64,000 nt of DNA, from IMG/VR virus record IMGVR_UViG_2061766007_002383, one strand, 5' to 3'. The stretch comes from an uncultured virus (IMG/VR IMGVR_UViG_2061766007_002383). Its lineage: Duplodnaviria; Heunggongvirae; Uroviricota; Caudoviricetes. The translations under genes were made by a program, and so were the position numbers. Below the pieces are notes generated by a model, which saw nothing but the letters and a program-made list of their open reading frames with translations, searched no databases and was not told where the DNA came from. This document shows, in pieces, positions 805-32,646 of the stretch (position 1 is its first letter; each line of letters starts with the position of its first letter).

Positions 805-1233
805 TTATAATTCCATTATAAGCATTGCGACTTCTTTCAAAGTCTTTCTGCTTGGTTGTGGGTCTTGCCCCAATAGTAAATTGAGTAACTGTTGTGGGCT
901 TTTTGTAGGTCTTTGGTCAAGGAAAGACTCCATTGCATCCCATAAGGTTCTGATAGCCCCTTTTTGGGCTTCAGATTTTTTAATTAAAGATGGTTTGCCA
1001 TCTTTAATGGTAAAGAGATGTGTAATTTCTTTTTCACCACCCCTAGATACACATAAGTAAAGATGTCCTTCTTCTAATTCGACATCTTCTTTCTTGGATA
1101 AGAAATCACCAATGATTCCAAACCCATTTTTCCCTTGAGATGGATTTAAATCCTTAATCTCTTTAGCATAACTTCTACCACCGAAATCGTAGCCATCAAA
1201 TGGCAATTTATCTTTTTTGAAATTAAACTTCAT
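805..1233 (-). CDS. Hypothetical protein (likely start MKFNFKKD)
   Basis: The GGAGA RBS at 1246-1242 favours the ATG at 1233 over the track start at 1248. Confidence 0.7.
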   Translation of the reverse strand: MKFNFKKDKLPFDGYDFGGRSYAKEIKDLNPSQGKNGFGIIGDFLSKKEDVELEEGHLYLCVSRGGEKEITHLFTIKDGKPSLIKKSEAQKGAIRTLWDAMESFLDQRPTKSPQQLLNLLLGQDPQPSRKTLKEVAMLIMEL

Positions 1234-1269
1234 ATTATCTATCTCCATTAAATTAATTGCTTTTCTGCA

Positions 1270-1308
1270 ATTATATAAGCATCAAAAGTGATTTGGTGCT
1301 TATATAAT
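1270..1308. promoter_or_regulatory. 17-bp inverted repeat with TTATATA boxes on both strands
   Basis: ATTATATAAGCATCAAA-AGTGA-TTTGGTGCTTATATAAT; intergenic. Confidence 0.55.
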
Positions 1309-1324
1309 GGCAAAAATGCCATTA

Positions 1325-1666
1325 TTAGTCGATAGAAACAGAGAATCCATCAATCCAGTTGATGTTTTTGATGGTTTCTCCATTCTTTTTCACTAACTCA
1401 ATTGCTCTTCTAATGCCTTTGTAGTTTCTAATTACAAGGTTTAACAGACTTATGTAATTATCAGAGCGACCTTTAAGGATTTCTGACAATACAAACCCAT
1501 CGTTTAACAATTGAAGACTTGTGTCATCTATAATGTAGATTGCACCATCTACAACAGTAGCACTAGTCTTTGCATATTCATAATCCTTGTTACCATCGAT
1601 TCTGATTACTACAGAGTCGACTGTGATTGGTTGCCCATTTATAACATCAATCATTACTTTGCTCAT
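1325..1666 (-). CDS. Hypothetical protein (likely start MSKVMIDV)
   Basis: GGAGA RBS at 1678-1674; the longer track start overlaps the intergenic repeat. Confidence 0.7.
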   Translation of the reverse strand: MSKVMIDVINGQPITVDSVVIRIDGNKDYEYAKTSATVVDGAIYIIDDTSLQLLNDGFVLSEILKGRSDNYISLLNLVIRNYKGIRRAIELVKKNGETIKNINWIDGFSVSID

Positions 1667-2223: not shown

Positions 2224-2487
2224 TTACCATCGACTGATGTCGATGGCTTTGTTTTGGCACACAGACTGGCAAGGTGTGGAGTCAGTCCAAAAGCCATCAC
2301 AATGATGGCAAGGAGCGACATCTGACACCCCATCTATGTACACAATCTCTGTTGCGACATCAGAATACTCTGATGACACAGAGAAGAAGTTCAACCACTT
2401 AAGACCTTGTGAATGACAAGCATCCACACAAGCACCACAAAGGGTGCAGTTTGAAGAAGTAGAGAAGTAAGTGTCCATAAGAATCAT
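2224..2487 (-). CDS. 4Fe-4S dicluster ferredoxin-like protein
   Basis: CTLCGACVDAC (CxxCxxCxxxC) plus CHHC...PCQSVC.NKAI. Confidence 0.8.
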   Translation of the reverse strand: MILMDTYFSTSSNCTLCGACVDACHSQGLKWLNFFSVSSEYSDVATEIVYIDGVSDVAPCHHCDGFWTDSTPCQSVCQNKAIDISRW

Positions 2488-2639
2488 TTAAATTGTGTAT
2501 CTCCAACCCTTAACAGTTGTTCTGACTCTAGAAGAGTTCAAAATCAAGATACATCTGAAAAAAGAAAAAAAAAGAGATAAATATTAAAATAAAGGTTGTA
2601 GTATCGTTAAATCAAAAAATAGAAGTAAACTTCGCAAAT

Positions 2640-4020
2640 TCCGAAAGAACGATTCTCCACCCTTATTTGAGAAATTTAAAAGATTTCCGAGTTGTTTTAA
2701 TGTGCCACCACCCATTAGCATCCAATTTTTGAGTGCCTTGCTTTCTGGTGACCTTGCAGACCATACTAACCCATTTGCGATGCTTACTGCTCAAATAAGC
2801 ACCGTAGGGATGGAATAAGTCGGATAAGCCACTAGATGTGACTCCGAAGTTGGAGAAAAGGGTGAACCACACAGAGAACCGAAAATCGGTCGCTATCGAC
2901 TATAGTCTGAAAAATAGCCGACTGCTCACATCGTTTTGCACAAAAGAGTGCAGATGACCCATCCGAAACAAAAAACAAGGACATACATCGCTTGTATGCC
3001 GACAAGAGTTCCGAAAAACCCTTGAAAATGCTTTTGGACTGTACACAGAGCCGTGAACATCGTAGTTGCGATTGCTCCCAAGGGCTTTCCCTAGTGTCAT
3101 CCGAAAGAATCGGAATTGATGAGTATCTAGCCCAAACAAGCACACTACGATGTGTGTTGGCTCACTTACCACTATGAATCGACAGTCGACAAGGTTAGCA
3201 ACAAGGATGAAGTAATTTCGCCAAAGCAAGGTTCGACAACTTGCAGATTTGAAAAAACCCCAAAAAGGGGAGTTCGATTCGATATCCACCCACGAATCTC
3301 AAAGAGAATCGCCATCCAAGGGCAGAAACCTAGATTCACTAGCCAACCGACATCAGAAAACTTGTTTTGACCCCATTCCGAAGTGAATGTATCAGAATGG
3401 CAAAAACACGATGAACTCAATCGTTCTTCACCGATTCCAACCCAAAAAATCCGATGTGTCGAATATCGGATGTGGATTGAAGCCAGTTCCGAAAAGAATG
3501 GCTCAAAGATGCCCAAAAAAGCCCAGTCACCCACAGACTTCAGAATCTGTGGAACTAGACAAGCCAAGGACTGTACAAAGCCAGTTGGGGCTAGTTAGCC
3601 ACGAAGACTTCTTCTGAATCGCAATTTTACTCACAGAAGCCCACAAAGGGCAACTGATGTTCCAAAGTCGCTTTGGCAACTGGTAATTGCCGTTGCGACC
3701 CCAAAAAGAGCCGAAAAGCGATTTCATCGCTTATTGCGAAGAATTGACAGTTCTCCACACAAGCCGACTGCTTGAAACATATACACAGTCAGAAGTGGTG
3801 GTTGTCAAGCCACCGACTGTGGTTGGGAGTTATCGCCCCAACGAAGCCCCCTAAAGGGGATTTCGCCGAAGCGAAGTTCTTACATCTGTCGAAAATCCGA
3901 TTTTAGGCGAAGAGAACCACCAATTCGCCCAAAAACGAACACAGACTGCCCACATCGAAGCCTTGCAGTAAGGTTGTTCCGATGCAAAAGCCCAAAGGCT
4001 CTACCCTATAGGCACAGTTC
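2640..4020 (-). ncRNA. Candidate large structured non-coding RNA (boundaries approximate)
   Basis: Visibly GC-richer than the flanks, with no credible ORF and many hairpins. Examples on the minus strand are CAAGGGUUU-UUCG-GAACUCUUG and UUCGC-UUCG-GCGAA. A U-tract lies downstream at 2575-2558. Confidence 0.5.
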
Positions 4021-4684
4021 TAGTACCAACAAACTCAATTCAAAAAGATTGCAAAATTTTTGTGTTTTGCGATTAAATAAGTAATTTCTTTCGTAATCAA
4101 AAAAGTAGTTAATTTCTGAAGTAATTGCTAAAATAAAGACTAAAGCATCTAGTATAGGCAAAATGGAGAGAAAATCAAAGAAAAGAAAAAGAAGCGATGT
4201 TGTGTCTACGATTTCAACAAAGATACACCAAAACTTTCTGAATCACCAAACAAGCCTAGAACAGTACCGAATCAGCAAATGCAGACCATAGACAAAAAAA
4301 GCCAAAAATAATACTTTTTTGCCAATTATTATTACTGAAATTTAATCGATTGTCTGCAGTTGGATTTGCTAAAGTAATTGCTACAGTTTAGATTGACTCT
4401 AAAGAACGATGGAGCATTGAGAAATCAAAAAAATACAGTTATAGATTCAAAAAACAGTTTGCGATGCCTATACTGTATATATTATGTAGGAACTTATTGA
4501 CCTACATTAGCCCCAAAGTAGATACCATTTAAACACATGACAAATCGTGATAAATTCCTGATAAAATCTGTCGAAATGCTTGTATATTTGCAATTTGATA
4601 TAGAGTAAATGACAAATTTACGATGGTTTCGGTCGGTTTTAGGTGTGCCTAAAAAAAAATAGATGGTAGAAAAAAAAAGAAAGA

Positions 4685-5152
4685 TTATGACTTCTTTGCA
4701 AGAGTTAAGACACTACCATCTGCCATTCTTGCATCAGTCCATTTTTTGCTTGTTTTAATTGCCTTGATGGATGCTTCTTCCTTGGCTTGGATAACTGAAT
4801 CAATCCAGTCATCCAATTCATCAACAAAGCCATAAACAACATCCAAATTTAAAATTGAATGCTTTCCGATGGTTTTTGTTGCATCATCGCAATTAAACCC
4901 ATTGAAATTATGGCTAAAGTAGTCTTCTTTTGACTCAAAGCCTAATAAATGGGCTTCAGATTCGCTCAATACTTGCTTATCTTCTTGGATATCGAAAACA
5001 AAGTAATATCCAAGGTTTACGAAATCAAATAAGCCGTGTAGATAAGAATAAATTCCACCGACTTTGTGAACATTGGAGTCAATAGCCCTAAATGTGAGCA
5101 TCTTTGCTCCAGTAATGTATCCGATGTCTTCAGATTCGTGAAAACTTGACAT
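4685..5152 (-). CDS. ASCH/PUA-like domain protein (likely start MSSFHESE)
   Basis: GAKMLTFR...KVG and LSESEAHLLGFESKEDYF resemble ASCH motifs; GGTGA RBS at 5161-5157. Confidence 0.5.
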   Translation of the reverse strand: MSSFHESEDIGYITGAKMLTFRAIDSNVHKVGGIYSYLHGLFDFVNLGYYFVFDIQEDKQVLSESEAHLLGFESKEDYFSHNFNGFNCDDATKTIGKHSILNLDVVYGFVDELDDWIDSVIQAKEEASIKAIKTSKKWTDARMADGSVLTLAKKS

Positions 5153-5180
5153 ATAATCACCTTTTTTGGAAATCCAAGCC

Positions 5181-5429
5181 TTATAATGCTTGGATTTCGA
5201 TTTCAACACCATTTGGAGTTAATATTACCATATCGCCAAGGGTGTTCAAAAATTCACCATCTTCTTCAAAAATTGCTCTAGCAACTTCTACATTGTGGAA
5301 AAATGGATTTACGAGTTCTCCATCTTCTGTTTCAAAATAGAAGCCTAATCCTTTTTGTACTAAAGTCATTTTCTCTTCTGATGCTTTATTTTCGGTTCTT
5401 TTACTTACTATAATTTCCCATTTATTCAT
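5181..5429 (-). CDS. Hypothetical protein (82 aa)
   Basis: ORF with a GGAGA RBS. Confidence 0.7.
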   Translation of the reverse strand: MNKWEIIVSKRTENKASEEKMTLVQKGLGFYFETEDGELVNPFFHNVEVARAIFEEDGEFLNTLGDMVILTPNGVEIEIQAL

Positions 5430-6404: not shown

Positions 6405-6930
6405 TTTTCTCTCTCCATAGGGGGAATTTGCTCGAAAAACGCCAAATTATAAGAGATTTGGCGATTCCAAGCCTTCTCCACATAGTAAACTAAAATTGGA
6501 TGTCATCCAATAATAATTTACTATATATTATATTATATTANNNNNNNNNNNNNNNNNNNNNNNNNNNNNNNNNNNNNNNNNNNNNNNNNNNNNNNNNNNN
6601 NNNNNNNNNNNNNNCTATTCAATTCTTCTGAAACTAACTAATTTTTCTTTGTTTTTGAATCTGAAGCCATAGCATTGAGATTGAACCAAAACAAGTCATA
6701 TCAGTAGGTTATAGGTCAATCCAAGCCACCATAATAGAATAAATATTTACTACTTGTAACCCATCCAAACACCGATGTGAAGTGTTTCACATCGACCTAG
6801 CAGCGACAGGATGTAAAAAAGCCAAATAACCGTCCATTTGCAAAAAGAAAGCCAGAAATTGCTTTTTGCTCGTTGTGTAAGACGCAGGTAAATCGATACC
6901 AAAAAATAATATGTGCCAACGGAAGCCACA

Positions 6931-7020
6931 CGATGCCCCAATTGACCAATAGGGCAACCAGAAGCCTGCATTGGAGCAACAGAGCAACGACAATGCTCCA
7001 ATTGACCAATGGGGCAAGGA
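6931..7020. repeat. Two ~25-bp palindromic direct repeats at 60-bp spacing
   Basis: ATGCCCCAATTGACCAATAGGGCAA (6933-6957) and ATGCTCCAATTGACCAATGGGGCAA (6993-7017). Confidence 0.75.
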
Positions 7021-7129
7021 GAAACGGAATTTCGCGAAAATAAGCACTCAAAAGGCTTTTTATTGTTTTGCGTCTGACCTAGTATTTTTGGCAATGTTGG
7101 TTATAGAAGAATGTCTTACATTTAGTGTC

Positions 7130-8281
7130 TTACATCTTTAATAAATCTCCAATTTCAAGAATGTCAAAAATTTCGCTATCTGAAAAAATTACATCTTCTT
7201 TATCGCAAAGTTGAATGAAATCTTTGTTTAAATTTGTTGTAATATAGTTGTTTTTACGAACAACACCATGTTCTTTGCTGTTAAAATCAACATGAATTTG
7301 TAAATCTTTATCTGAATTAATGTATCCTTCAACTATATGTACATTAATTTTGCTATTTAACCCAAAATTAAACCAATAATTATCAAAAAAAGTGTTATTT
7401 AAGTCCCTAATAAGCAAATCTGATGAAAAATAATGATAAGCATCAATAATTTCGCCCCAATTCCAGCAAATAAGGTAAGGTATTGTTTTTCCGCCGTTTC
7501 CCCAGTAATTAAGTCGGTTAGCAAGTACATAATTGCTTAAATTCACCCTTCCAGCCCCAACTACATCAATAACAACCCACTCATCACAATAAAATCCATA
7601 CAAAAACCACCCATTTGCATTTTCTTCCCACTTAAATTTCGTTACAGATGGAGAAACACATACAGGAAAGTGACATCCGCTAAAAAAATCACTTATTTTC
7701 ACTTGGTAATCAATAGGTGCGTCATTAATTAAAGAAGCATGTATTTCACTAATACCTTTATTTACATAGAACATTTGACATAATAATGGATAAATTGCCT
7801 TTTTACCCTGCAAATTATACACCGAAATGACTGATTTTGCATCAAAAACGGTGGTTGGAAGTCGATTAGCCTCTTTTATAAAGTCTAAAAAGTCATATTC
7901 AGAGTAACAAATCTCATAAATTTCATTTTTGAACCTTTCTGGACATTTTAGTGTTGCGACGATTGTATTTAACGAATTTTTAGGTACTTTTTCAACAAAT
8001 TCAAGATTTTCGTAAATTTTTTCGCCAAAAAACGCCAAAATTCCGACATAAAAGCCTGCAATATCGCTAAAATCGTTATTTTTTAGCTTTTTATACACTT
8101 TAAGAATGCCATTTTCATTACCAATTCCAGGCACAAAAATGCCTTGAGCTGCCCCTTTTTTACGATATCTTGTCAATTTTTGACCCCAACCACCCCCTAA
8201 ATCATAAGAAAACCAGTTCATTTCAAAAGGTTTTTCTCCAATTAACTCTCCAATCTCCTTAATTTTGATATTTTTCGCCAT
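7130..8281 (-). CDS. Hypothetical protein with weak resemblance to a degenerate ATP-dependent ligase adenylation domain
   Basis: GGTGA RBS at 8290-8286. VIDVVGAGRVNLSNYVLANRLNY and DLLIRDLNNTF echo ligase motifs IIIa/IV, but there is no KxDG. Confidence 0.45.
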   Translation of the reverse strand: MAKNIKIKEIGELIGEKPFEMNWFSYDLGGGWGQKLTRYRKKGAAQGIFVPGIGNENGILKVYKKLKNNDFSDIAGFYVGILAFFGEKIYENLEFVEKVPKNSLNTIVATLKCPERFKNEIYEICYSEYDFLDFIKEANRLPTTVFDAKSVISVYNLQGKKAIYPLLCQMFYVNKGISEIHASLINDAPIDYQVKISDFFSGCHFPVCVSPSVTKFKWEENANGWFLYGFYCDEWVVIDVVGAGRVNLSNYVLANRLNYWGNGGKTIPYLICWNWGEIIDAYHYFSSDLLIRDLNNTFFDNYWFNFGLNSKINVHIVEGYINSDKDLQIHVDFNSKEHGVVRKNNYITTNLNKDFIQLCDKEDVIFSDSEIFDILEIGDLLKM

Positions 8282-8406
8282 AATTTCACCAGTAAGTAAG
8301 TAATTAATTAATTTCACAATTTATTGCACAATTTCCAGTTTAAAAAGCCGATTATGACTAATAAAATGAAAGAAATGCCGAATAATAGTCCCAAATTCAT
8401 CAAAAA

Positions 8407-8781
8407 TCACCTAAAATCATGCATTTTTGTCTTCGGTTTGATGTTTAGTTCTTTGAAATAAGAGTCGATTGTCCGAAGGTTGATGCCCATTTCTTGAGCG
8501 ATTTCTTGCTGTGAAAAGCCCATTTTATGCAATTTTTCGCATTGATAAACCCTATATTTGCGATTTTGAGACCTTTTATCGTCTTCACGAGTCAAATCAT
8601 GCTCATTTATGTATCTAGAGAGTTTTGAACGATGAATTCCAGTCAATTCTTGAATAATCCGCAAAGAATAGCCTTCCTGCCATAAAATAAGTGCCTGCTC
8701 AAATGAATCAGTAATTGATTGCGTACGTAATTGCTTAATTAATTGCTCACCTAATTGCTTACGAACTTCGTAGGTGTCCAT
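8407..8781 (-). CDS. Tandem helix-turn-helix DNA-binding protein
   Basis: GYSLRIIQELTGIHRSKLSRY and GFSQQEIAQEMGINLRTIDSY; start uncertain (8781 or 8826). Confidence 0.75.
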   Translation of the reverse strand: MDTYEVRKQLGEQLIKQLRTQSITDSFEQALILWQEGYSLRIIQELTGIHRSKLSRYINEHDLTREDDKRSQNRKYRVYQCEKLHKMGFSQQEIAQEMGINLRTIDSYFKELNIKPKTKMHDFR

Positions 8782-8785
8782 TGTA

Positions 8786-9064
8786 TCAGAGCTCCTTGAA
8801 GGTGATATCGACGTGTAAAAGGGCATTTTCAGAGTTGAAAATAGGATTATAGACTAATTCGTCGAAAATATTCATCTTTATTTTGTATTCTTCATCGCTG
8901 AATCTATCTCTGAAGATAGATATTGTAATATCTAGTATTGTGCCTTCATCGTGGTATTTTGGTGATGGTATTATATGTGTAATATGCGCATCATCGCCAA
9001 AAACTGTTGTTGTAGCGTTATCGATGGATATTAATAATGCACCGATGTCTTTTGTTAATGTCAT
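8786..9064 (-). CDS. Hypothetical protein (92 aa)
   Basis: ORF with an AGGA RBS, divergent from the structural operon. Confidence 0.6.
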   Translation of the reverse strand: MTLTKDIGALLISIDNATTTVFGDDAHITHIIPSPKYHDEGTILDITISIFRDRFSDEEYKIKMNIFDELVYNPIFNSENALLHVDITFKEL

Positions 9065-15895: not shown

Positions 15896-17104
15896 ATGGC
15901 AAAAGATTTAGCAAGTTTCACAGGTGCAACTCATTCAGAATTCGCAGGTGGCGGAGCAGTAGCTCACCATAACAGAATGGACCCTATTTTATCTGAAGAT
16001 ATCATCAAATATATCGAACAGCACTCCGATTTCAGACAATTTGTCAAACTCGTTTCTACAACCGAATATGTTACTATTTTACCAAGGAAATGGTCAGCAG
16101 GTATTGCTGTAGAAATTGTAGAAGGTTCTGAAATCCCTAAAGCTAGAGATGTTTACGACACTATCAGTATCAATTTAAAACAAAATGGTACTGGTATTAA
16201 AATGACTGATGAAGAACAAAAATTAATGGGATTCGATTCTAACTACTTTGCTACCGAAGCACAGAGAGCAACCGAAAGATTAATGAAAAAAGAAAACGAT
16301 GATATCGCAACTGTAATGTTGGCAGGTGCAGGATACAATGTTATCGCATCCACATACAGTACATTAAAATTCGATGACATCTTAACAGCTAAAACAGAAA
16401 TGTTAGAAAACCCATATGGTGTAGAACCTGATTTAGTTTTAATGTCACATCGTTCTTACGCTGATTTAGTAAGAGACCCAGAATTTAAAACATACTCTGA
16501 ATCTGGTAAAACTAATGTAGTTAATACTGGTGATATCGGAATGCAAGTAGATGGTATGACTATTAAAATCATTCCAGAAGTAGGAGACAACGTATATTTA
16601 ATCGATACTAAATTACAACCAATTGTATTAGTACAAATGGATGGAGTACATGTCGAATCTTACAGATTACATGAAACTCGTGAAGACGTATTAGATTTAA
16701 CACTTTACGAAAAACCTGCAATTTTAAGACCAGATGCAATTACCAAAATTACTATTACTAGAAATGATGCTCGTCCACAAAGAGTATTCCCTGCTGGATG
16801 GGACCCATTTGACGGATACCCAGAACTTCCAATTGAAGATGAAGAAGAAGGTGGAGAAACCACTAAAGAAACAAGAACCTTAACATTTACTATTAATGAT
16901 GGTAAAAATGCAATTGAAGGTGCTACTGTAGCTATTGGTAGTAAATCTTCAACTACTGGAGCATTAGGTGGATGTACATTAGGTGAAATTGAAGATGGTG
17001 AACAAACTGTAACTGTTTCAGCAACAGGATACACTACTAAAACAGAAACAATTACAGTATCTGAAAATAGTACCGCATTTACTATTAGTTTAACATCTGC
17101 ATAA
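15896..17104 (+). CDS. Major capsid protein (HK97 fold) with a C-terminal Ig-like domain
   Basis: EIVEGSEIP, PDLVLM and KPAILRPDAI motifs; GGAGG RBS. An acidic linker is followed by a carboxypeptidase-regulatory-like beta sandwich. Confidence 0.9.
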   Translation: MAKDLASFTGATHSEFAGGGAVAHHNRMDPILSEDIIKYIEQHSDFRQFVKLVSTTEYVTILPRKWSAGIAVEIVEGSEIPKARDVYDTISINLKQNGTGIKMTDEEQKLMGFDSNYFATEAQRATERLMKKENDDIATVMLAGAGYNVIASTYSTLKFDDILTAKTEMLENPYGVEPDLVLMSHRSYADLVRDPEFKTYSESGKTNVVNTGDIGMQVDGMTIKIIPEVGDNVYLIDTKLQPIVLVQMDGVHVESYRLHETREDVLDLTLYEKPAILRPDAITKITITRNDARPQRVFPAGWDPFDGYPELPIEDEEEGGETTKETRTLTFTINDGKNAIEGATVAIGSKSSTTGALGGCTLGEIEDGEQTVTVSATGYTTKTETITVSENSTAFTISLTSA

Positions 17105-23950: not shown

Positions 23951-26900
23951 ATGTCCCAAAATAGAACCATTAAAACCCCACAAGATTATGTTAATTATAC
24001 CTTTAATATTCAAGCCAGAGGTGTAGCAGAAGTATCTGGTGAATTAATAGGTTTATCTAATACAGTAACAAATATTCTTGGGCAATTAGCTTTTAAAACA
24101 TCTGAATTTTTAACACATACTGACTCAATGGCATTAGGCGTTGGGGCTACTATTGCATCAATGTTTATATCTGCTAGTCAAAGTGCTGAAAGATTTCAAC
24201 AACAAATTGCAAATGTAAAAGCTATTGGTGGTGAATCAGTTGATGCTAATGCTATTGGGCAAGCGGCTATGGAATATTCTAATAGATTCGGTATGGCAAC
24301 AGCATCAATGACAGAAGGGCTTGAAGCTCTTGCTAGAGCTGGTATTACTAGTACAAAAGTAATGGGACAGGTACTAGAAGAAGGTGTTAAATTATCTAAA
24401 TTAGAAGGAATGGATTTAGAAGATTCAATCAATAGTTTAATTTCAACAACAAACTTATTAGCAGAATCTGGCATAGATATGAATGCTGAAGATTATGGTA
24501 ATTTTGTACAACAAATGAACCAACATATTGTATCTACTTCAGAATCCGCACCAATTAATGCCCAAAATATTATACAAACATTACAACATGTAGGTGGATA
24601 TGCATCCGCATCAGGAATGGACCAAGAAGATTTATTTGCTGTTATTGCTCAATTAGGTTCACGTGGTACAAAAGGAGAAATGGCAGGTACTGCATTAAGA
24701 GCATTTATTGCAGCAGGACAAAAAGATACAGCACAAAGAGCATTAAAGAGAATTGGTTTAACACCAGCTGATTTATGGGATGATGGTGGTGAAACCATGC
24801 TGTCAATTTCAGAAATGAAAGATGTTCTTGATGAAGCATTAGAAGCACGTGGATATTCTAAACAAGAAAAACTTGAATTTTATTCTGATTTTGCTGGTTA
24901 TAAACAAGCTAACCAGATTATGAAAATTGACACAGCTGAAGTAGAGAAATATAAAGAAAATATTGCTAATGCATGGAGTTTAGGTGAAAAATTAGATACA
25001 ATTTTAGGTACTGTCAAAGGAAACCTAGATAGAATATGGCAAATCACTCAAAATTTTATGACTAAAGTTGGTAGCAATCTTATTAATATATTAGGATTAA
25101 TTTTATCACCTATAAGAGCAATTTTAGAAATATTTACAAAAATTCCATTTATGGATACGGTTGTTGCAGCTGGAATGTTATTTGNNNNNNNNNNNNNNNN
25201 NNNNNNNNNNNNNNNNNNACTTTTAATAAACTAGTACCTGCTGTTGCTGGTTTTATGAGTGGAATTGCGAATGTTAAAAAAGAATCATTCCAATTAGAAA
25301 ATATTTGGAAAAGCACTACCGACCAATTAAAATTAGCGTCACAAATTCTTGATAAAATTAAAAATGGAGACCAAAGAGGACTTGTAAAATTAAATTATCA
25401 ACAACATGGTTTGCCAACCAAACAAATGGAAGAAATAAGAATGGAAGTTGTATCACAAATGTATAATGATTCAGAAGGTTATAAAACCTTTGGATTAACT
25501 TTTGATGAGCTCCCTAATTATTTCAAAGATATGATTGCTGCCGAATTTGAAACTACTGATATTTATAGAGAAAACTTACAAACACACATAACAAATGCGC
25601 TTAAAAAGGTTGATGAAGTCACTAGTAATCCAGTAAAAATTACAGAAGCTTTCCAAGAAGAAAGATTAGATGCTATTAGTAGATATGTTGAATATATTTA
25701 TGATATATTAAAAAGACAAGATGAAGATAATGGTAACGACCAAGATGATGGAGAAAGTGCACGCAGTAATAGACGCCGTAATGCAGAAGCTCACGCAAGT
25801 GGCTCTGGTTCTGGTGGCTCTGGTTCTGGTGGCTCTGGTTCTGGTGGCTCTGGTTCTGGTGGTTCTGGTTCTGGTGGCTCTAGAGATGTTGATACTGCAG
25901 TAGCTGATGCGGTTTCTAATATTTTCGGTCGATTAAATGGACGTACATATGGTAATTATGAATTTGACTTCAGGGGCGTAAGTGGATATAATAATTTAAA
26001 AAAAGAAATGAGTCAGGCATTTGATGACTTAATTAAAAAAGTTAATAGTTTTTCCAATACAGATGTCACTCAAATGAATTCTGTACAAAGAACTACATAT
26101 AAAAAATTATTATATCGTGAATCAACATTAAATGCAGGCGCTAGAAAATATTCTACAAGAGCTAATGAATCAGAAGTACGTCTAGCTTTAGAAAAAGGTA
26201 TTTTTGAAGACCCAGGTTCATCTAATAGAGGAATTCGTAATGACCAATTGCGTGTTATGGCAAGAGCTGTAGGATTACGTATTAATCGAGAATATAAAGA
26301 TTTAGAAGAAGCAGGTAATCGTGCTGAAATTGTGAGAAGGATTCATGAAGCTGGTGGAGAAAAGTTACAAGACCCACGAGAAGTAGATAAAATTGTAAAT
26401 AAAACTAGAAAAAAATGGACTGATTTTTTAGATTCTTTAGAAGAAGAAGGCAGAGTAACTATTGACCCACAAAAAATATTACAAAATGACCCTAGAATTA
26501 GTAGACAAATTATTGATGCATTGCATATTAATACAAATGGTGTAAGTGATACACAAGCAGTATATAATTATTTCAAACAAGCAAGAAATCGTACAGATGA
26601 TAAAGTTAATACTGCAACAAATATTATTTTTGAAAACTTAAAAAATAATGGACAAATTTTTTCATTACCTGAACAAAATGAGATACAATATGTATTAGAA
26701 AATATAAAACGTATGCGTAATACATTAGACTTGTTTAGTGTAGATGGAGCTCATGACCAATTTAAAGATGAAATTGATAGTATTCGTGCTGATATGGATA
26801 CATATAACACTATCTTACAAACAGGTGGTGAAGCATTAGGACAAGCTTTTGTAGAAGGCTTTGTTGTTGAAGGATTAGGACGTCATTCACCAGGTTTTGC

Positions 26901-29900
26901 ATACAAAGCTTTTCAAGCTGAATTGAGAAGTATAAATCAATTATTTACAGAAGGTATTGCTAGTTTATCAGGTAAAGAATTTAAAAGCTTTAAAAAATCT
27001 ATTCTTCAAGATTTTGATGTTAAAGATGCTACACTCAATGCAAAAGTATCTGAAGCTGCATTAAGGGCGGAATCATATTCAGATAGTAAAAATTTTAGTA
27101 AATATGAAAAACAATCTTATGCTTTATATAAAGAGGGTGCATCAAGTCGAATGAGAGAAATATTTACTAATTTTGAAGATTTAGAAAATTATTATAATGA
27201 AGCTAATTTTTTACACGAATATTTTGAAAATTATGATGCCTACGATAAAGCAATAAGACACAGAGATGTTAATCTTCCAGATGTATTTGCTACAGCAAAA
27301 TTACATAGTGCTTTTAAAAAAGCACCTAAAATTCCTATATCATCAATGTTGTATCGAGTAGGAGAATCAAGTGAAATTAATACTTTTGATAATGGATTTG
27401 GGTATTTCCCTGGTGCAGTATCTACTAGTTATGATTCATCAGTAATTGGAAGAGATTGGTTACGAAAAGCATATAAGTCACCTACTGATATCACTATGAG
27501 AGCACCAGCTGGTATACCAGCTTTAACTGATGCATTATTTTATAATCCAACAGACCCATTAACATATACTGGTGATAAGTTTGGCGAAGCTGAAGCCACA
27601 TTGGGTGCATTACAAGCCTTTTTTAAAGACGATAGTATTGGTGGAGATTTACAATTAATTACACCTGAACAAATTAATATTCTTTCTGCTATGGTTAATG
27701 ATGAATTGGATGATACTATTGCAGTAATGGATACTATACATCCTATACTTAAAACTAAAGCAACAGATTTAGGACATGGTATTGTAACTGGTTTTGTTGA
27801 AGACGGATTAGGTAGACATTCACCAGGCTATCTAGCACAAGCTGCTAAAAATGAAACAGAAGATACTGATAATGCATTAGAAAGGGGCACTAAATTAATA
27901 TATAGTAAAAAATATGGTAAAATTTTTAGAGATGCTATATTAAAAGATTTAGATGTGGATACTTTAGAACCTTTTAATAAACCTACTTTTTATCGTGTAC
28001 CAACTGTTAAAGATATATCTAGAGTAGCATCACCTGAAGCAATAAAATTAATGGATAATGGATTTTACTTTGATGACCCTGATGAACGTCCACCTGGACT
28101 TATTCCTGGTCCATTAATGCAAAGACAAATATTACATCAAAATGCAAATAATTTTCCTACTTTTGATGAAAAATTAGGTTTTACTAATTATATTTTTCCA
28201 TTTGGTTCAGATATGAATGCTTTTGTTAGACATCCGAAAGATTTTGGACCTGGTGTTTATAGTGGAAACTTTAGATTCTTTACACCTGGTTTTGATGAAA
28301 AAAGTCAACGAAAAAAACCAAATTCACGTACATTAGATAATTTCATTGTTGATGATGAAGTATATATAAATTTTATCAAACAACAAGTAAATGCAGCTAA
28401 TCGTAATATTTTACAATCTCCAGGTTTATTAGAACCAACAGTATTAACTCGTGGTGGTATTCTTAATAAACCACGTAATAAAATTGGTCAATTTGATGCA
28501 TTAACATCAACATCATATTATCCACCTATAGGAGAAAGCTTTAATGATGACAGTAGAAAAAGAACAATGAAATTATTATCTCCTGCTGGAACAAAAGGCT
28601 TAATAGCATATCCAGCCGCATTAACACAAGACCAACAATTATTTTTTGATGAATTAGAATTAACATTAAGTGGTTTCCAAAAATATATAGAAGTTAATCG
28701 AAAAAAAATTGCTGGACAAAAAGGTGCATTATTAAGATTAATTACTGATGAAGAAATTATTGATTTTGCTAATAATATAGAAAAATATAAAGCTATTGCA
28801 TCAGGTGAAGACGATGACGTTTTCCATTCATATAAAAGTCATTTACATGACTACACATATGACCCTTTTATTAGTGATAGGGTATATGGAACAATGAATA
28901 GTCTATACGACAAAGAAAGCAACCCAAGTATGGAATATAGTGCGGATAGATTAGATGCATTTTTTGATATGGGGGAAGTATTAGTAAATGATACTGATTC
29001 TGCGCTTTCATTAGGTACAACTGATGGTAAAACTCTTGTAATAAATATTCCAGATATTATAGAAGAAGCACAAAATGAAAATGGTAACTATGGAGATTTA
29101 TTATTAGATACTTATTTACATGAATTAGCACATATTACATTACAGCATAAACAAAGAGAAAAAATGACATCTTCTCCTTATGCTATTAAAAATTTCCAAA
29201 CTGACGGATATGTTGGTGAATATGATAACCATTTGCAAGCTGAATATGAAGCAATGATGACTGCTCAAAGTGTGCAAAAAGCATTAGGTATAACAATTGG
29301 CAAGAATGATACAAAAAATTTAAAAGCTATAGAAGAAGAGTTGAAAAAACATAATGTTGATGTTGATTTCAGTAAAAAAATTGCTAAAAATATGGCAGAA
29401 TCCATGTTAAAAAATCTTGATTATATTTTTGGAGATATTGATGAAATAGAATCAATGAACCGAATGAAAGCAGATACAGGTGGATTAGGCACATGGGAAA
29501 AAACAAAAAATCATATTACAAAAAAATTATCACAACATAAAGATAATGATGCAGATGTATTTTATTCAAAACCAAGAGGAGCTAGACCATCAAAATTACA
29601 AGAATTGCTTTATCCTTTAGAAAAGCAAATAAAAGAATTAGAAATATATAAAAGACACATTAAAAAAAGAAATGATTTATTATTAGACATATGGTATGAA
29701 TTCCAAAGAACAGAACAAGGATATGGTAGTGGTAAATATTCTGAAGTAAAAATGAAAAATGGTGTAAAACGACTTAACGATTTAATGGATGATAATCGTT
29801 TCTATTATGATGACTTATATGATGAAGAAGGACATTATATTGCTGGACCTAGAATAAAAAGAACATTTGGAAAACATGGAAGAGGTACAGCAACCCAACA

Positions 29901-32646
29901 TAAACATGGTAGAGCACCTGTAAAAATAACAAATCTAGATGATTTTCATCGTAGACACGCTAGCGGTACAGATAATGACGAAGAAGAAGAAACAGAACAA
30001 CAACGTCAAGCACGTGAATATAGAGATAGACACGATGAAAGAAGACGTAGAAACAGACAACATCATGAAAATATTAGAAAAAAAATAGAACAAAAAGAAA
30101 ATGCACGTCAATATCGTGATAGACGTCTTCAAAGACGTGGTAGAATCAATCAACACAATAGAGAAGTACGTGAACAGTTAGAACAACAACAAGAAGAAAA
30201 TCGTCAAAAAGCTGAATTACGTCAAGAATGGGAAAACCGTTATTTAAGACGCAGAAAACGTTTAAAAATTATGGGTAGACCAGGTACACCTGAAAGAGCT
30301 AAATGGGAAGAAGAAGAAAGATTAAAAAGAATGACTCCTTTTGATAGAGCAAGAGAGCAATTAAAAGATGTCCCAGATGGTCGTAGTAAACAATGGCTCA
30401 TGAAAGGTATTGGTATTAGTGAAAAAGTATCTAATAAAGCAAATAATGCATTAAGTAAATTTTCCGAAAAAGCACAAGAAGCTTCCGATAATATTGCTGC
30501 AAAATATAAAGAAAGATATGAATCATATCAAAATGACGATAAACTACAAGGTAATGACCATATAACTTATTCAAAACAACGATTAGGTGATGCTATAGGA
30601 CATGTTGAAAACTTTAGAAATGCATTAGGTACATTATCTGAAGTTTTCCCAGCATTAACTCCAGCAGTATATGGTCTTGATATGGCATTAAACTTAATGA
30701 AAGTAGGTGTACAAACTTTAGAATATGTAGAAGGTATATTACTCTTTACTAGAGAAGGCGCTGCAGCAGCAAACATGTTAGAAGCCGCATCAGAAGAAAC
30801 AAAAGCTGGAGCGTCTCTTATGGCAACTTTAGCAAACTGGGCTGAAAGTGAATCTGAAATTCAAAAAGCTATTGGAACAGCAGGTACAACTATTGTTAAC
30901 TGGTTAGCAACTGGAGCAGAAGCTGCTTTAGCGGCAATTAGGGCTATTGGACTTGGTCCTATATTATTAATTATTGGAGCAATTATTGCTGTCGTTGCTG
31001 TATTATACTTCTGGGAAAAGAAACATGCAGAAGCTTTAAAAGAAAATCAAGAACAATTTAAAGAAAATACAAAATCATTAAATGCCGCAATTGCTAAATA
31101 TAAAAGTGTACGTGCTGCAAGAGTAGCTGAAACACAAGCTGTACGAAAACATCAAGCGGCTTTAAAAGAATCTATAGCTTTACGACAATTACAACTACAA
31201 AGACAAAAACAATTACAAACTATTGATAAAGGTACAACAATACGTAATGATGGAATGTGGGGTGAATATGGATTAAGAGCTCAATTACAAAAAGGTGGTG
31301 ATTGGGTAAATCTTATTCCTGGTATTGGACCGCTAATAAGACATTTAGTTGGTGACTATCAAGAAACAGCATCAGAGCATGAAGGCACATCACAACAAAT
31401 TAGAACTATTATTGATGATGAGTCCGCATTCGGAATTTTTAATAATCCATATCAAAATTATGTAGATAGTTATTATAAAGCTCATGCATATGATTTTGGA
31501 CGTATGGATGCGTTCGCACCACAATTACAAGAACTGTATTCTGTTGAAACACAAGCACAAAGATTATATGGAACAGAAGATGCACGTAATTCTGATATGT
31601 TTTTAAGAAAAATGCAAGAAGTTGCTGACCAAACAGGATTAACTGGAGCGGAACTAGGACAATATCTTGACTATATGCAAACTGAAGCCAATGTTGAATA
31701 TGCAAGAACTGAAGCACAATCTCGTTTTGGTGAAATACAAGCAGAAGCAAATACAAAAGCTATGGAATTTTTATTCCCAGAAACTGGTGATATGGGTGAC
31801 CAAGATAAATTAAGATATAATATGGTTATGGCTGCTGTAAAAGATGAAGCTTTTAAAATGAAACAGCAATTATTTTATAGTGCTATGATGGAGTACGCAC
31901 AAGCATTATATAATTTCTTAACTGGTAATTGGGGAGAAGCAGATAAACATAGAAAAGCAGGTAATGCATATTTAGAAGGTATGGCTGAAGTAGATGAAAA
32001 ATCTAAAGAAATTGCAGAAGATTCATTAGCTATTAGTGAAGAACAATTACGAAAAGATTATGGAACAAAAAGTTATTCATTTTATGGCGATACACCATTT
32101 GGAGGAGCTATAGATTCTGCGCATGCAGCAGGATTATCAGTAGTTAATCATGGAAGTAGTCAGACTAGTATACAAAAAAATACATCATCAAGTACAAGTT
32201 TAAATAATTCATATAATGATGCAGCAAATGCTGCTCAAAAATCATTAGATAACGCTTCTAAAGCATTACAAGAAGATTATGGCTCACAAGATAATGAAAA
32301 TCATATTGGTCTTTTAAGTAAGGCATTAAATTTTGCCGCAAATTTACATCCAGCCGTTGGATTAATTACATCATTATTTGGTGACGATAAAACAGAATCA
32401 GCGGCTGGAGACTCATCACAACCAGTAGTTAACAAATATGAAATTAATATTAATACAATTAATATCAATACAGAAGATAATCCAGAAAAAATTAAAACAG
32501 CATTTATGAATTTAATGATAGAAATGTCTGAACAAATTACACCAAGATATGTATCAAGAACTACTGGACAAATGTCTAATACTAATGAGCAAAGTACTGG
32601 TACTGAAATTAATTATAACAACAACAATAATCCCAATAATATATAG
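23951..32646 (+). CDS. Tape measure protein (~2900 aa) with two ADP-ribosyltransferase domains and a zincin metallopeptidase; split in the ORF track only by the N-gap 25185-25218
   Basis: TP901-type core (EGLEALARAG, GTKGEMAGTALR). The frame after the gap reads TFNKLVPAVAGFM into the 2463-aa ORF. Motifs: LYR/STS/EAE, LTRG/STS/ELE and HELAH. Confidence 0.85.
25801..25881 (+). repeat. 15-bp tandem repeat (GGCTCTGGTTCTGGT) x5, encoding a GSGSG linker
   Basis: Directly visible; the fifth copy has one substitution. Confidence 0.95.

What the first reader, a model, noticed from the sequence alone, without database searches (positions are those of the whole stretch)
2640..4020. Candidate ~1.4 kb highly structured non-coding RNA
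Seen: the 2.2 kb between 2487 and 4685 has no credible gene, and its core is GC-richer and packed with hairpins. Minus-strand examples are CAAGGGUUU-UUCG-GAACUCUUG (~3003-3024, two G-U pairs), CCAUUCUGA...UCGGAAUGG (~3373-3400), GUCGC-GGCAA...UUGCC-GCGAC (~3667-3699) and cUUCGg (~3862-3875). CCACAGA/TCTGTGG (~3531-3552) and CACAGTC/GACTGTG (~3785-3821) also pair. A long U-tract follows at 2575-2558. Several G-U pairs favour the minus strand, but some stems favour the plus strand. Known: bacterial phages encode large ornate RNAs such as GOLLD and ROOL. Inference: this may be an undescribed large RNA of an archaeal virus. A structured origin of replication is the alternative.
Basis: partly seen in the sequence, partly recalled or inferred. 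Interest (0 to 1): 0.75.

Follow-up and report, generated by a model that had tools for sequence, protein, structure and literature searches.

The report
Large folded RNA gene in methanogen virus
A 1.4-kb gene-free, GC-rich stretch of a rumen virus that probably infects methane-producing archaea most likely encodes a large folded non-coding RNA read on the minus strand, of a kind not catalogued so far, though no transcript has been seen.

Summary
Window 2640-4020 is a GC 0.45-0.48 island in a GC 0.30 genome. Strain variants in four other metagenomes carry 1-2-nt indels inside it, so it is not coding. Rfam gives nothing.

Five related viruses have an ORF-free GC-rich island at the same place. 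Each is preceded, in the window's minus sense, by a near-invariant 27-nt block (window 4028-4054). The islands themselves share no detectable sequence with the window's.

Two relatives' islands align with each other. They show 28 pairs changed on both sides, against 0-4 in slid controls. Their consensus fold is strand-specific: z -7.6 in the window-minus sense and -2.3 in the opposite sense.

In the window, 9 of 11 confidently paired polymorphic sites keep pairing in the minus-sense fold, against 2 of 7 in the plus-sense fold. One pair runs G-C, G-U, A-U across haplotypes.

A relative encodes a pseudomurein-binding repeat, which points to a Methanobacteriales host.

Best reading: an undescribed, fast-evolving, roughly 1.45-kb structured RNA gene running from about 4027 to the U9CU6 tract at 2573-2558. 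Its function is unknown. Expression is untested, and internal U-tracts are a caveat.

The parts
2580..4027 (-). Body of the proposed structured non-coding RNA, about 1.45 kb. In RNA sense it is G+U-rich and C-poor: A .22, C .21, G .24, U .33.
   Evidence: GC island. No coding signal. Indels of 1-2 nt in strain variants. Minus-sense fold with many helices at P>0.9. Polymorphism test. 5' limit inferred from the conserved block; 3' limit from the U-tract.
4028..4054 (-). Conserved 27-nt block TTGCAATCTTTTTGAATTGAGTTTGTT directly upstream of the island in the minus sense. Proposed promoter/operator or 5' leader.
   Evidence: Unique in the 64-kb window, with 0 expected by chance. Present with 0-2 mismatches in L042/L053 (C64), L056, L060 and L061, and more loosely in L062 and L070. 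It always sits just upstream of the GC-rich island.
3988..4027 (-). First two hairpins of the RNA: GGUAC/GUGCC at 4027-4011 and GAGCC-UUUG-GGCUU at 4001-3988. They flank the semi-conserved CUAUAGGGUAGAG motif.
   Evidence: P 0.80 and 0.73. The motif YUAUWGnnUGAGAg followed by a hairpin of different sequence is visible in all six sequences. This is by eye; RNAalifold did not align it.
2822..2964 (-). Long-range 11-bp helix 2964-2954/2832-2822 (GGAUGGGUCAU/GUGGCUUAUCC, four G-U pairs) with a compensatory polymorphism at its closing pair.
   Evidence: P 0.97 in the minus-sense fold; 2822 is 98% unpaired in the plus-sense fold. Pair 2964/2822 is G-C in the window, G-U in X3 (2822 G>A only) and A-U in X4 (2822 G>A plus 2964 C>T). 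In each run one contig covers both sites (tables 3 and 8).
2558..2573 (-). U9-C-U6 tract, the proposed archaeal intrinsic terminator at the RNA's 3' end. It lies 71 nt before the next start codon (2487).
   Evidence: Pyrimidine/U tracts also close the islands of C64 (U7), L056/L060 (UUAUUUUUCUCUCUUU, identical in both) and L062 (U6). That oligo-U terminates archaeal transcription is recalled knowledge.
4055..4684 (.). AT-rich spacer (GC about 0.30) between the upstream gene 4685-5212(-) and the block. It holds the repeat pair below.
4113..4139 (-). Copy 1 of the repeat with core UAGCAAUUACUU (minus sense). Candidate operator.
   Evidence: the repeat finder family D2. AGCAATTA repeats lie upstream of the block in L056 (x3), L060 and L062.
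4366..4392 (-). Copy 2 of the same repeat.
   Evidence: D2, 78% identical to copy 1 over 27 nt.

Best explanation
The island is the gene for a stand-alone, multi-domain structured non-coding RNA of about 1.45 kb. It belongs to a large (about 140-150 kb) tailed virus of Methanobacteriales methanogens.

Proposed working, all inferred:
1. Transcription runs leftward on the minus strand, in the same direction as the flanking genes. It starts at or just after the conserved 27-nt block (4054-4028). That block lies downstream of an AT-rich spacer carrying AGCAATTA-type repeats, which are probably a regulator's binding sites.
2. The RNA folds into many local hairpins tied together by long-range helices, for example 3047-3026/2723-2701, 2979-2969/2747-2737 and 2964-2954/2832-2822.
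3. It ends at the U9CU6 tract (2573-2558), before the next gene.
4. The RNA acts through its fold and not through a conserved sequence. Relatives keep the locus, the orientation, the upstream block, the G+U-rich composition and (where testable) the base-pairing, while the primary sequence and length (0.7-1.45 kb) change freely.

My most likely functional guess, at about 0.3, is a trans-acting scaffold or decoy RNA made in infection. It would resemble the large ornate RNAs of bacteriophages in kind, not in ancestry.

Shown: the region is non-coding, has above-chance folding and a conserved syntenic architecture; two relatives show strand-specific covariation; polymorphisms in the window favour the minus sense.
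Inferred: transcription, RNA ends, independence from the downstream mRNA, and function.
For: 1. Not coding.
- Single-base or 2-base indels between near-identical variants occur at 2910, 3099, 3114, 3123, 3369, 3371, 3599, 3600, 3605, 3606 and 3645. In the other 3.6 kb laid, only one indel is listed (1802). The table shows 12 indels and states that 9 more are not shown.
- No Pfam match for 7 ORFs inside the island.

2. The indels fall in predicted loops or junctions of the minus-sense fold. Position 2910 is in the loop of 2922-2914/2903-2895, 3645 is in the loop UUUGU, and 3369/3371 lie between helices.

3. Family architecture.
- C64 (G006 contig, TerL 86%) has a 2.4-kb ORF-free gap with a GC 0.44-0.47 island at the syntenic place.
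- L056, L060/L061 and L062 were found through the conserved neighbour protein; 14 loci were returned. Their GC 0.38-0.44 islands start right after the same block.
- The block is unique in the window.

4. Covariation in L056 versus L060.
- 177 pairs, 28 changed on both sides, 24 on one side, 0 broken. Slid controls give 0-4, and 0 of 500 shuffles reach 28.
- Consensus MFE is -125.1, against -82.7 +/- 5.5 for 30 column shuffles (z -7.6), in the sense that equals the window's minus strand. The opposite sense gives z -2.3.
- These two islands are 68-81% identical in DNA. Their flanking genes are 73-78% identical.

5. Window polymorphisms. 20 substitutions are listed inside the island.
- In the minus-sense fold, 11 fall on sites paired at P>=0.5 and 9 keep a standard pair, counting 2964 as compensated by 2822.
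- In the plus-sense fold, 7 are paired and 2 keep a pair.
- At the two transition sites where both folds predict the same partner (3146-3064 and 3649-3641), the variant gives G-U in the minus sense and A-C in the plus sense.
- Pair 2964-2822 runs G-C, G-U, A-U across three haplotypes.

6. Folding is z -2.5 to -5.8 per 460 nt.

7. Orientation-specific words. CCGAA occurs 10 times on the + strand in 2641-3866, against 0 TTCGG. GGCUU in RNA sense is about 4-fold enriched in all five islands: 11, 3, 9, 7 and 9 observed against 2.8, 0.8, 2.7, 1.6 and 1.7 expected.

8. The flanking genes are on the same strand, and a U9CU6 tract follows the island.
Against: - No transcript evidence. No listed sequencing run is on record as RNA, so expression, strand and ends are unproven.
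- The proposed sense carries about a dozen internal U5-U6 tracts. TTTTT is counted 16 times against 11.9 expected. From recalled knowledge these can terminate archaeal RNA polymerase, so a single 1.45-kb transcript is not assured.
- The window's island shares no detectable sequence with any relative's island. A covariance model of the best-supported domain of L056/L060 finds nothing in the window, L062 or C64; the best hit outside the training pair has E 0.068. Homology of the islands rests on position and the shared block only.
- Single-sequence z-scores are alike on both strands, and one coding control is as low at -6.1. The relatives' islands give z from -5.1 to +1.3 with no consistent strand bias.
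- The polymorphism test uses folds predicted from the reference itself. It sees only the 40 best-supported of 161 variant rows. About half of transitions at a Watson-Crick pair keep pairing by chance. Two sites (2900, 2951) break the minus-sense fold.
- The covariation rests on two effectively independent sequences, and the structure was derived from that same alignment.
- The closer relative G001 shows no island, although its contig starts 2 kb from the syntenic gene. G002 and G003 lack both the island and the block.
- The record holding C64 is titled a Clostridia MAG. I read this as a binning artefact.
Confidence: 0.62

Rival explanations
1. The same minus-sense RNA exists, but as a long cis-acting structured leader or attenuator of the downstream leftward operon (2487 onward). 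Read-through of the U9CU6 tract and the internal U-tracts would set expression of the genes behind it.
For: Same strand as the downstream genes, with only 71 nt between the U-tract and the ATG at 2487. There are many internal U-tracts that could be regulated pause or termination sites. In L056/L060 and C64, small genes follow the island on the same strand.
Against: 0.7-1.45 kb is far larger than any leader I know of (recalled). The downstream genes differ between relatives: only o805 and the ferredoxin-like ORF have homologues, and these sit elsewhere in G001. A strong U9CU6 tract suggests a separate unit. No data separate this reading from the main one.
Confidence: 0.15
2. A DNA-level element. 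The conserved block, AGCAATTA repeats and AT-rich spacer are a replication origin or another protein-binding site, and the GC-rich hairpins act as DNA (cruciforms or single-strand initiation signals).
For: The block is unique per genome and more conserved than the neighbouring proteins: 25-27 of 27 bases against 47-62% amino-acid identity. The AT-rich spacer has repeats. Hairpins fold on both strands.
Against: In L056/L060 the structural signal is strongly strand-specific, z -7.6 against -2.3. 77 of 354 paired cells are G-U, which would be A-C mismatches on the other strand. The window's G-C, G-U, A-U series works in one sense only. No Orc1/Cdc6 or Rep domain appears in the adjacent ORFs. 0.7-1.45 kb of non-repetitive sequence is unlike iteron or ORB arrays. 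A strand-specific single-stranded DNA role is not excluded.
Confidence: 0.1
3. A plus-strand structured RNA, convergent to the flanking genes. The A-rich linkers and GAAA-like loops would be its single-stranded parts.
For: The + strand is A-rich, as unpaired parts of many structured RNAs are (recalled). It has almost no T5 runs: TTTTT occurs once, against 16 on the other strand. Middle third z is -5.6 on plus against -4.1 on minus. T5 and T4 runs follow at 4058-4076.
Against: Only 2 of 7 paired polymorphic sites keep pairing. In the relatives the opposite sense has z -2.3 only. The T-runs after the block are not conserved in L056, L060 or L062. The orientation-specific words and the conserved block fit the minus sense.
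Confidence: 0.05
4. No function: a decayed foreign (GC-richer) gene or junk spacer that happens to form hairpins.
For: Three overlapping minus-strand ORFs of 103-131 aa in different frames. There are no homologues of the island itself.
Against: An island of the same kind sits behind the same block in five relatives. L056/L060 keep theirs as well conserved as the flanking genes, with compensatory changes. No Pfam hit in any frame-ORF. Folding is above shuffles.
Confidence: 0.05

Closest known systems
GOLLD and ROOL RNAs, the large ornate RNAs of bacteriophages and prophages. Seen as the search listing and abstract start of PMC12286853 and PMC5737381; further details are recalled.
   Same: Hundreds to more than a thousand nucleotides, with no ORF. 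Carried by tailed viruses of anaerobes; ROOL was first seen in rumen metagenomes. They have multi-domain folds with long-range helices, and their function is unknown.
   Different: No Rfam match at the gathering threshold in the window, or at E<=10 in 2400-4700. None at E<=0.1 in four relatives' loci. The host is archaeal. No tRNA genes lie nearby: 0 in 64 kb. Sequence and length are not conserved among relatives, whereas GOLLD and ROOL have conserved cores (recalled).
phi29-family packaging RNA (pRNA). Recalled, no call.
   Same: A virus-encoded RNA at a fixed genome position whose sequence diverges between related viruses while the pairing is kept.
   Different: pRNA is about 170 nt and is part of the packaging motor of small podoviruses. 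Nothing here links the island to packaging.
Origin-proximal primer or activator transcripts (ColE1 RNA II, T4 oriF/oriG R-loop transcripts). Recalled, no call.
   Same: A promoter next to an AT-rich region drives a structured, G-richer-than-C untranslated RNA.
   Different: No origin has been mapped here. The RNA is much longer. No RNase H-type or initiator gene lies beside it.
GC-rich islands as markers of structured RNA genes in AT-rich archaea (the screening principle of Klein, Misulovin and Eddy 2002). Recalled, no call.
   Same: GC 0.45-0.48 in a GC 0.30 genome, exactly the signature that screen used. In relative G003 the other non-coding GC island, 82,100-83,100, shows tRNA-like sequence by eye; ARAGORN was not run.
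   Different: That screen found small RNAs, and in cellular genomes.

Membership tests
Any Rfam 15 family (GOLLD, ROOL, OLE, group I/II introns, RNase P, SRP, rRNA, tmRNA and others). That these are in the library is recalled. | Covariance-model score at or above the family's gathering threshold | tested here: not met
   0 matches in the whole window at gathering. In 2400-4700 at E<=10 there are only 4 sub-threshold chance hits: a Tetrahymena snoRNA at 26.9 bits against 100, HIV_GSL3, C0465 and RefA1. In relatives L070, L060, L062 and L042 the only hit at E<=0.1 is a 17-nt tmRNA T-arm fragment outside the island.
tRNA / tmRNA | ARAGORN cloverleaf or tmRNA detection | tested here: not met
   0 genes in 64 kb.
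Structured non-coding RNA (generic) | Absence of coding constraint | tested here: met
   Indels of 1-2 nt between 98-99% identical variants. No Pfam hits.
Structured non-coding RNA (generic) | Base pairs supported by compensatory change, specific to one strand | tested here: inconclusive
   For the window's own island there is one compensatory pair (2964/2822), and 9 of 11 sites against 2 of 7 are consistent. For the positional counterparts L056/L060 it is met: 28 double changes against 0-4 in slid controls, z -7.6 against -2.3. This rests on 2 independent sequences only.
Structured non-coding RNA (generic) | A transcript of the predicted strand and size | not testable with these tools
   No RNA run listed among 21 runs. 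Read laying was used on DNA contigs only.
Same RNA family as the islands of L056/L060 | Match to a covariance model of their 3' domain | tested here: not met
   Model R1 (241 positions, 66 pairs) gives no hit in the island. The best window hit is E 1.7, at 16880-16952. The model is built from 2 sequences, so its sensitivity is low.
Archaeal transcription unit | BRE/TATA promoter about 25 nt upstream of the start, and an oligo-T terminator | tested here: inconclusive
   The terminator-like U9CU6 is present. The conserved block holds TTTTTGAAT, which is not a canonical TTTATATA box. C64 and L070 do have TTTATATA between the block and the island. Consensus sequences are recalled, and no archaeal promoter scanner is available.
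Archaeal replication origin (ORB/mini-ORB type) | Inverted ORB repeats flanking an AT-rich unwinding element beside an orc1/cdc6 or rep gene | tested here: not met
   There is an AT-rich spacer with two direct repeats, but the repeat finder reports no inverted repeat within the spacer; its one pair has arms at 3416-3428 and 4402-4414. No initiator domain is found in the ORFs searched against Pfam or PHROGs within 5 kb. ORB consensus not tested.
Virus of Methanobacteriales | Pseudomurein-targeting protein; archaeal-type replication proteins | tested here: met
   Met in relative G001 only: PMBR PF09373 at E 1.4e-13, DNA_primase_lrg at 9.5e-8 and ERCC4 at 4.3e-16. In the window itself only TerL similarity to a Methanobacterium virus is seen. 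The 64-kb window shows no PMBR among the 23 proteins scanned.

The most novel reading that the evidence does not exclude
This is the first seen member of a family of fast-evolving, 0.7-1.45-kb, multi-domain RNAs fixed at one locus of large methanogen (Methanobacteriales) myoviruses. Each is launched from an almost invariant 27-nt virus-specific element. It would be the first class of 'ornate large RNA' in archaeal viruses. Because only the fold, locus and launch site are kept while the sequence turns over, it would act as a scaffold or decoy in the conflict with the host. It might also need a way to pass the many U-tract terminators inside it.
Probability: 0.4. Interest if true: 0.8.

Novelty: new variant of a known kind. 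Interest (0 to 1): 0.66.

Why it matters
Large structured RNAs of unknown function (GOLLD, ROOL, OLE) are known from bacteria and their phages. Four full-text searches and passages of one methanogen-virus paper found no such RNA described for an archaeal virus.

A kilobase-sized RNA kept at one locus of rumen and gut methanogen viruses would extend that phenomenon to the third domain's viruses. It would also give a defined family for RNA structure work: the window, C64, L056, L060/61 and L062, with a related conserved block in L070.

It raises a concrete question about archaeal transcription as well: how does a U-tract-rich untranslated RNA get finished?

Methanogen viruses also matter for rumen methane biology, and their early and regulatory regions are essentially uncharted.

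Tried and rejected
**Searches for homologues of the island**
- Phage DNA collection with 2400-4700, blastn: no match.
- DNA search of the island in five relatives' records and two MAGs: only chance hits, best E 0.004 over 19 nt.
- blastn and nhmmer against all fetched loci: nothing but the 27-nt block.
- IMG/VR exact-pattern scans. An 18-mer of the island gave one chance hit in a GC 0.58 phage. The block pattern gave only L070. A 23-mer conserved in L056/L060 gave 0.

**Searches through flanking proteins**
- o4685-5212 in viral contigs: 3 relatives, 0 loci.
- o4685-5212 in metagenomes: 0.
- o1796-2272: 0.
- The o805 alignment: 0.

**Expression**
- Sequencing runs: no RNA holder listed.

**Structure and strand tests that did not discriminate**
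- Covariance model R1 of the L056/L060 3' domain: no hit in the window, L062 or C64.
- Strand test by counting G-T against A-C juxtapositions inside Watson-Crick-flanked stems: observed 16 and 23, against shuffle means 12.8 and 18.4. Uninformative.
- Single-sequence z-scores do not tell the strands apart.
- RNAalifold on the six 5' regions did not capture the variable first hairpin.

**Repeats and copies**
- Self-comparison: no internal repeat units and no second copy in the window, so it is not an array or a multicopy element.

**Polymorphism density**
- In the listed pieces there are 58 differences in about 4.16 kb of island, against 144 in about 4.97 kb of flanks (table 8; 32 pieces shown, 59 more not shown).
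- I do not use this as evidence. The runs were chosen by words from 2500-4200, which biases the island towards identity.

**Neighbour protein o7130-8317**
- No PDB match to its profile.
- No usable Atlas hit.

**Other**
- Earlier findings of this scan: nothing on this genome or sequence.
- A full-length shuffle test timed out and was replaced by thirds.
- Considered and rejected by inspection only: C/D-box sRNA array, CRISPR-repeat mimic, DGR template. There are no repeats and no RT gene.
Full report
**What is there**

The window is a GC 0.31 tailed-virus genome piece. It encodes terminase, portal, major capsid, sheath, tape measure and baseplate J genes on the + strand from 9.1 kb on. A block of small minus-strand genes lies to the left.

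Between the minus-strand ORFs 2224-2487 and 4685-5212 there is no credible gene. Positions 2700-4020 form a GC 0.43-0.48 island. An AT-rich (0.29-0.33) stretch follows at 4020-4685. The only ORFs inside the island are overlapping ones of 131 aa or less, with no family match. There are no tRNAs in the window.

The U9CU6 tract at 2573-2558 is real.

**Is it more than chance?**

Against dinucleotide shuffles, the three thirds of the island fold with these z-scores:

| Segment | plus strand | minus strand |
|---|---|---|
| 2640-3099 | -2.5 | -2.5 |
| 3100-3559 | -5.6 | -4.1 |
| 3560-4020 | -4.3 | -5.8 |

This is clearly above chance. But one control segment over the neighbouring genes (1000-1459) reaches -6.1, and others give -2.1 to +1.7. 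Thermodynamics alone neither singles out the island nor picks the strand.

**It is not coding**

Contigs from four other metagenomes carry the region at about 98-99% identity. Inside the island they differ by 1-nt and 2-nt insertions or deletions at 2910, 3099, 3114, 3123, 3369, 3371, 3599, 3600, 3605, 3606 and 3645. Among the 12 indels shown, only one (1802) lies in the other 3.6 kb laid; 9 more are not shown.

These indels would frameshift all three long ORFs. They fall in predicted loops or junctions of the minus-sense fold.

**What kind of virus**

TerL is most similar to Methanobacterium virus PhiF1 (33%), then to Thermus and haloarchaeal viruses. Relatives in IMG/VR are 138-152 kb.

The complete relative G001 (TerL 78%) encodes a protein with the pseudomurein-binding repeat (E 1.4e-13), an archaeo-eukaryotic primase large subunit and an ERCC4 nuclease. 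Pseudomurein walls are a feature of Methanobacteriales (established knowledge), so an archaeal host is well supported.

The runs that hold the DNA are mainly bovine gut metagenomes. One contrary label: the GTDB record that holds the close relative C64 is titled a Clostridia MAG. I take that to be a mis-binned viral contig (inference).

**Known families**

- Rfam 15 gives no hit at gathering thresholds in the window.
- It gives only four chance-level hits at E<=10 in 2400-4700.
- It gives nothing in the relatives' islands.
- So this is not GOLLD, ROOL, OLE, an intron, RNase P, SRP or rRNA. That these families are in the library is recalled.

**Relatives: same place, different sequence, shared launch site**

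DNA searches with the island find nothing in phages, in five related viral records or in two MAGs. G001, G002 and G003 have no comparable island. In G003, the only GC islands are a Gly/Ala-rich gene and a tRNA cluster.

Closer relatives do have one:
- C64 (TerL 86%) has a 2.4-kb ORF-free gap with a GC 0.44-0.47 island between the homologues of o805 and o7130.
- A profile of the conserved neighbour protein o7130-8317 returned 14 loci from metagenomes.
- L056, L060 (near-identical to L061) and L062 have a GC 0.38-0.44 island 0.9-2.2 kb downstream of that gene.

The only sequence these islands share with the window is a 27-nt block, TTGCAATnTTTTTGAATTGAsTTTGTT.
- It is unique in the window, at 4028-4054 on the minus strand, with 0 expected by chance.
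- It has 0-2 mismatches in C64, L056, L060 and L061, and is a little looser in L062.
- It also occurs in L070, an unrelated-looking 37-kb viral contig. There it precedes a TTTATATA box and a 190-nt GC-rich stretch ending in T8.

In every case the block lies immediately upstream of the island in the sense of the window's minus strand. About 14 nt further comes a semi-conserved YUAUWGnnUGAGAg, which opens a hairpin whose partner arm differs in each virus (seen by eye).

Upstream of the block, AGCAATTA-type repeats recur. The window has two copies of UAGCAAUUACUU (family D2). L056 has three tandem copies, and L060 and L062 have two to three.

The block is far better conserved than the neighbouring protein, which is 47-62% identical.

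**Covariation and strand in the relatives**

L056 and L060 are alignable over the whole island. Their islands are 68-81% identical in DNA, and their flanking genes are 73-78% identical.
- Conserved blocks alternate with variable hairpins. Examples are CAGG...CCUG against UCGG...CCGA, and GCAG...CUGC against UCGA...UCGA across 45 nt.
- On the RNAalifold structure of the two sequences, 177 pairs are all kept. 28 changed on both sides and 24 on one side.
- With partners slid by 1-3 columns, only 0-4 pairs show double changes. 0 of 500 partner shuffles reach 28.
- The consensus energy is -125.1 kcal/mol, against -82.7 +/- 5.5 for 30 column shuffles (z -7.6), in the sense that equals the window's minus strand. 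The opposite sense gives -61.2 against -45.9 +/- 6.6 (z -2.3).
- 77 of 354 paired cells are G-U.

This is the signature of selection on a single-stranded RNA of one polarity.

Caveats: there are only two independent sequences, and the structure was derived from the same alignment.

**Strand in the window itself**

I mapped the 20 substitutions listed inside the island onto partition-function folds of each strand.
- In the minus-sense fold, 11 lie on sites paired at P>=0.5 and 9 keep a standard pair.
- In the plus-sense fold, 7 are paired and 2 keep a pair.
- Where both folds predict the same partner (3146-3064 and 3649-3641), the variant makes G-U in the minus sense and A-C in the plus sense.

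The clearest case is the closing pair of the 11-bp long-range helix 2964-2954/2832-2822. That helix has four G-U pairs and P 0.97, and it is absent from the plus-sense ensemble. The pair is G-C in the window, G-U in X3 and A-U in X4, each read from a single contig spanning both sites.

Against this reading:
- Sites 2900 and 2951 break the minus-sense fold.
- The folds come from the reference sequence.
- Only 40 of 161 variant rows were visible.

Orientation-specific words agree with one polarity:
- CCGAA occurs 10 times on the + strand, with 0 reverse complements, within 2641-3866.
- GGCUU is enriched about 4-fold in RNA sense in all five islands.

A direct count of G-T against A-C juxtapositions was uninformative.

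**What does not fit**

- No RNA data exist for this DNA.
- The proposed RNA carries about a dozen U5-U6 runs, at or above expectation. From recalled work on archaeal termination, such runs can stop the polymerase. Either termination there is leaky, or the RNA is made as nested species, or the virus has a way round it. Several runs are predicted to sit in helices, for example 2979-2969.
- A covariance model of the best-supported L056/L060 domain finds nothing in the window, L062 or C64. The claim that all islands are one family therefore rests on position, orientation, composition and the shared block.
- Given 47-62% identity of the neighbouring protein, loss of alignable RNA sequence is expected and is not strong evidence against common descent (inference).

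**How it most likely works**

The following is inference. A regulated promoter lies in or at the conserved block, with AGCAATTA repeats as an operator. The conserved HTH protein 8407-8826 is a candidate binder. This promoter drives leftward transcription of a 1.45-kb untranslated RNA. The RNA folds into hairpin-rich domains closed by long-range helices and ends at U9CU6.

Because the fold, locus and launch site persist while sequence and length drift, I think it acts in trans through its shape, as a scaffold or decoy during infection. That resembles phage GOLLD and ROOL RNAs in kind, not in ancestry.

Rival readings are scored in the Rival explanations section: a giant cis-acting leader, a DNA element such as an origin, a plus-strand RNA, and junk.

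**Novelty**

No Rfam family matches. Four full-text searches and passages of one methanogen-virus paper (PMC11375127) found no large structured RNA reported from an archaeal virus. Supplements were not examined.

I class it as a new variant of a known kind: a virus-borne large structured RNA, here in an archaeal virus, fast-evolving, and with a conserved launch element.

Noticed in passing
window 6750-7060: A second GC-richer (0.44), A-skewed, ORF-poor patch beside the conserved gene 7130-8317. It holds an internal direct repeat GCyCCAATTGACCAATrGGGCAA at about 6935-6957 and 6996-7018. A 33-nt stretch (window about 7030-7061, containing AAAATAAGCACTCAAAA) matches C64 at 85% identity (blastn E 3.6e-4).
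   Followed up: partly
window 6522-6614: A run of 93 N, either an assembly gap or a withheld stretch, inside an AT-rich intergenic region.
   Followed up: no
L070 (reverse complement) about 2600-2840: In an unrelated-looking 37-kb viral contig the same conserved block is followed by a hairpin, a TTTATATA box and a GC 0.46 stretch of about 190 nt ending in T8. This is a candidate small structured RNA with no Rfam hit.
   Followed up: partly
L042 4815-4831 (minus) and a second copy about 450 nt away in C64: Two copies of a tRNA T-arm-like hairpin, GGGGAATTGAACCCC followed by yACGAA, directly after small minus-strand genes. Rfam sees one as a tmRNA T-arm fragment (16 bits).
   Followed up: no
window 1000-1459 and 2100-2400: Stretches over the minus-strand genes fold far better than shuffles (z about -5 to -6 on both strands). 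Strong structure is therefore not confined to the island.
   Followed up: no
G001 (loci L024-L026, L018): The relative's genome encodes an anaerobic ribonucleotide reductase interrupted by a LAGLIDADG domain, a bacterial-type DNA polymerase III alpha with its PHP domain in a separate adjacent ORF, a GIY-YIG/NUMOD3 homing-type endonuclease and a pseudomurein-binding-repeat protein.
   Followed up: partly
window 2224-2487 (-): The gene directly downstream of the island is a small (87 aa) 4Fe-4S dicluster ferredoxin-like protein. Its Pfam scores are just below the cut-offs. It has a 37% identical homologue in G001 at a different genome position.
   Followed up: partly
window 41036-52102 and 25255-32646: Two giant ORFs of 3688 aa and 2463 aa in the tail module. 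The former and several neighbours carry bacterial Ig-like (Big_3_5, Big_1) domains, so they are probably fibres or adhesins.
   Followed up: no
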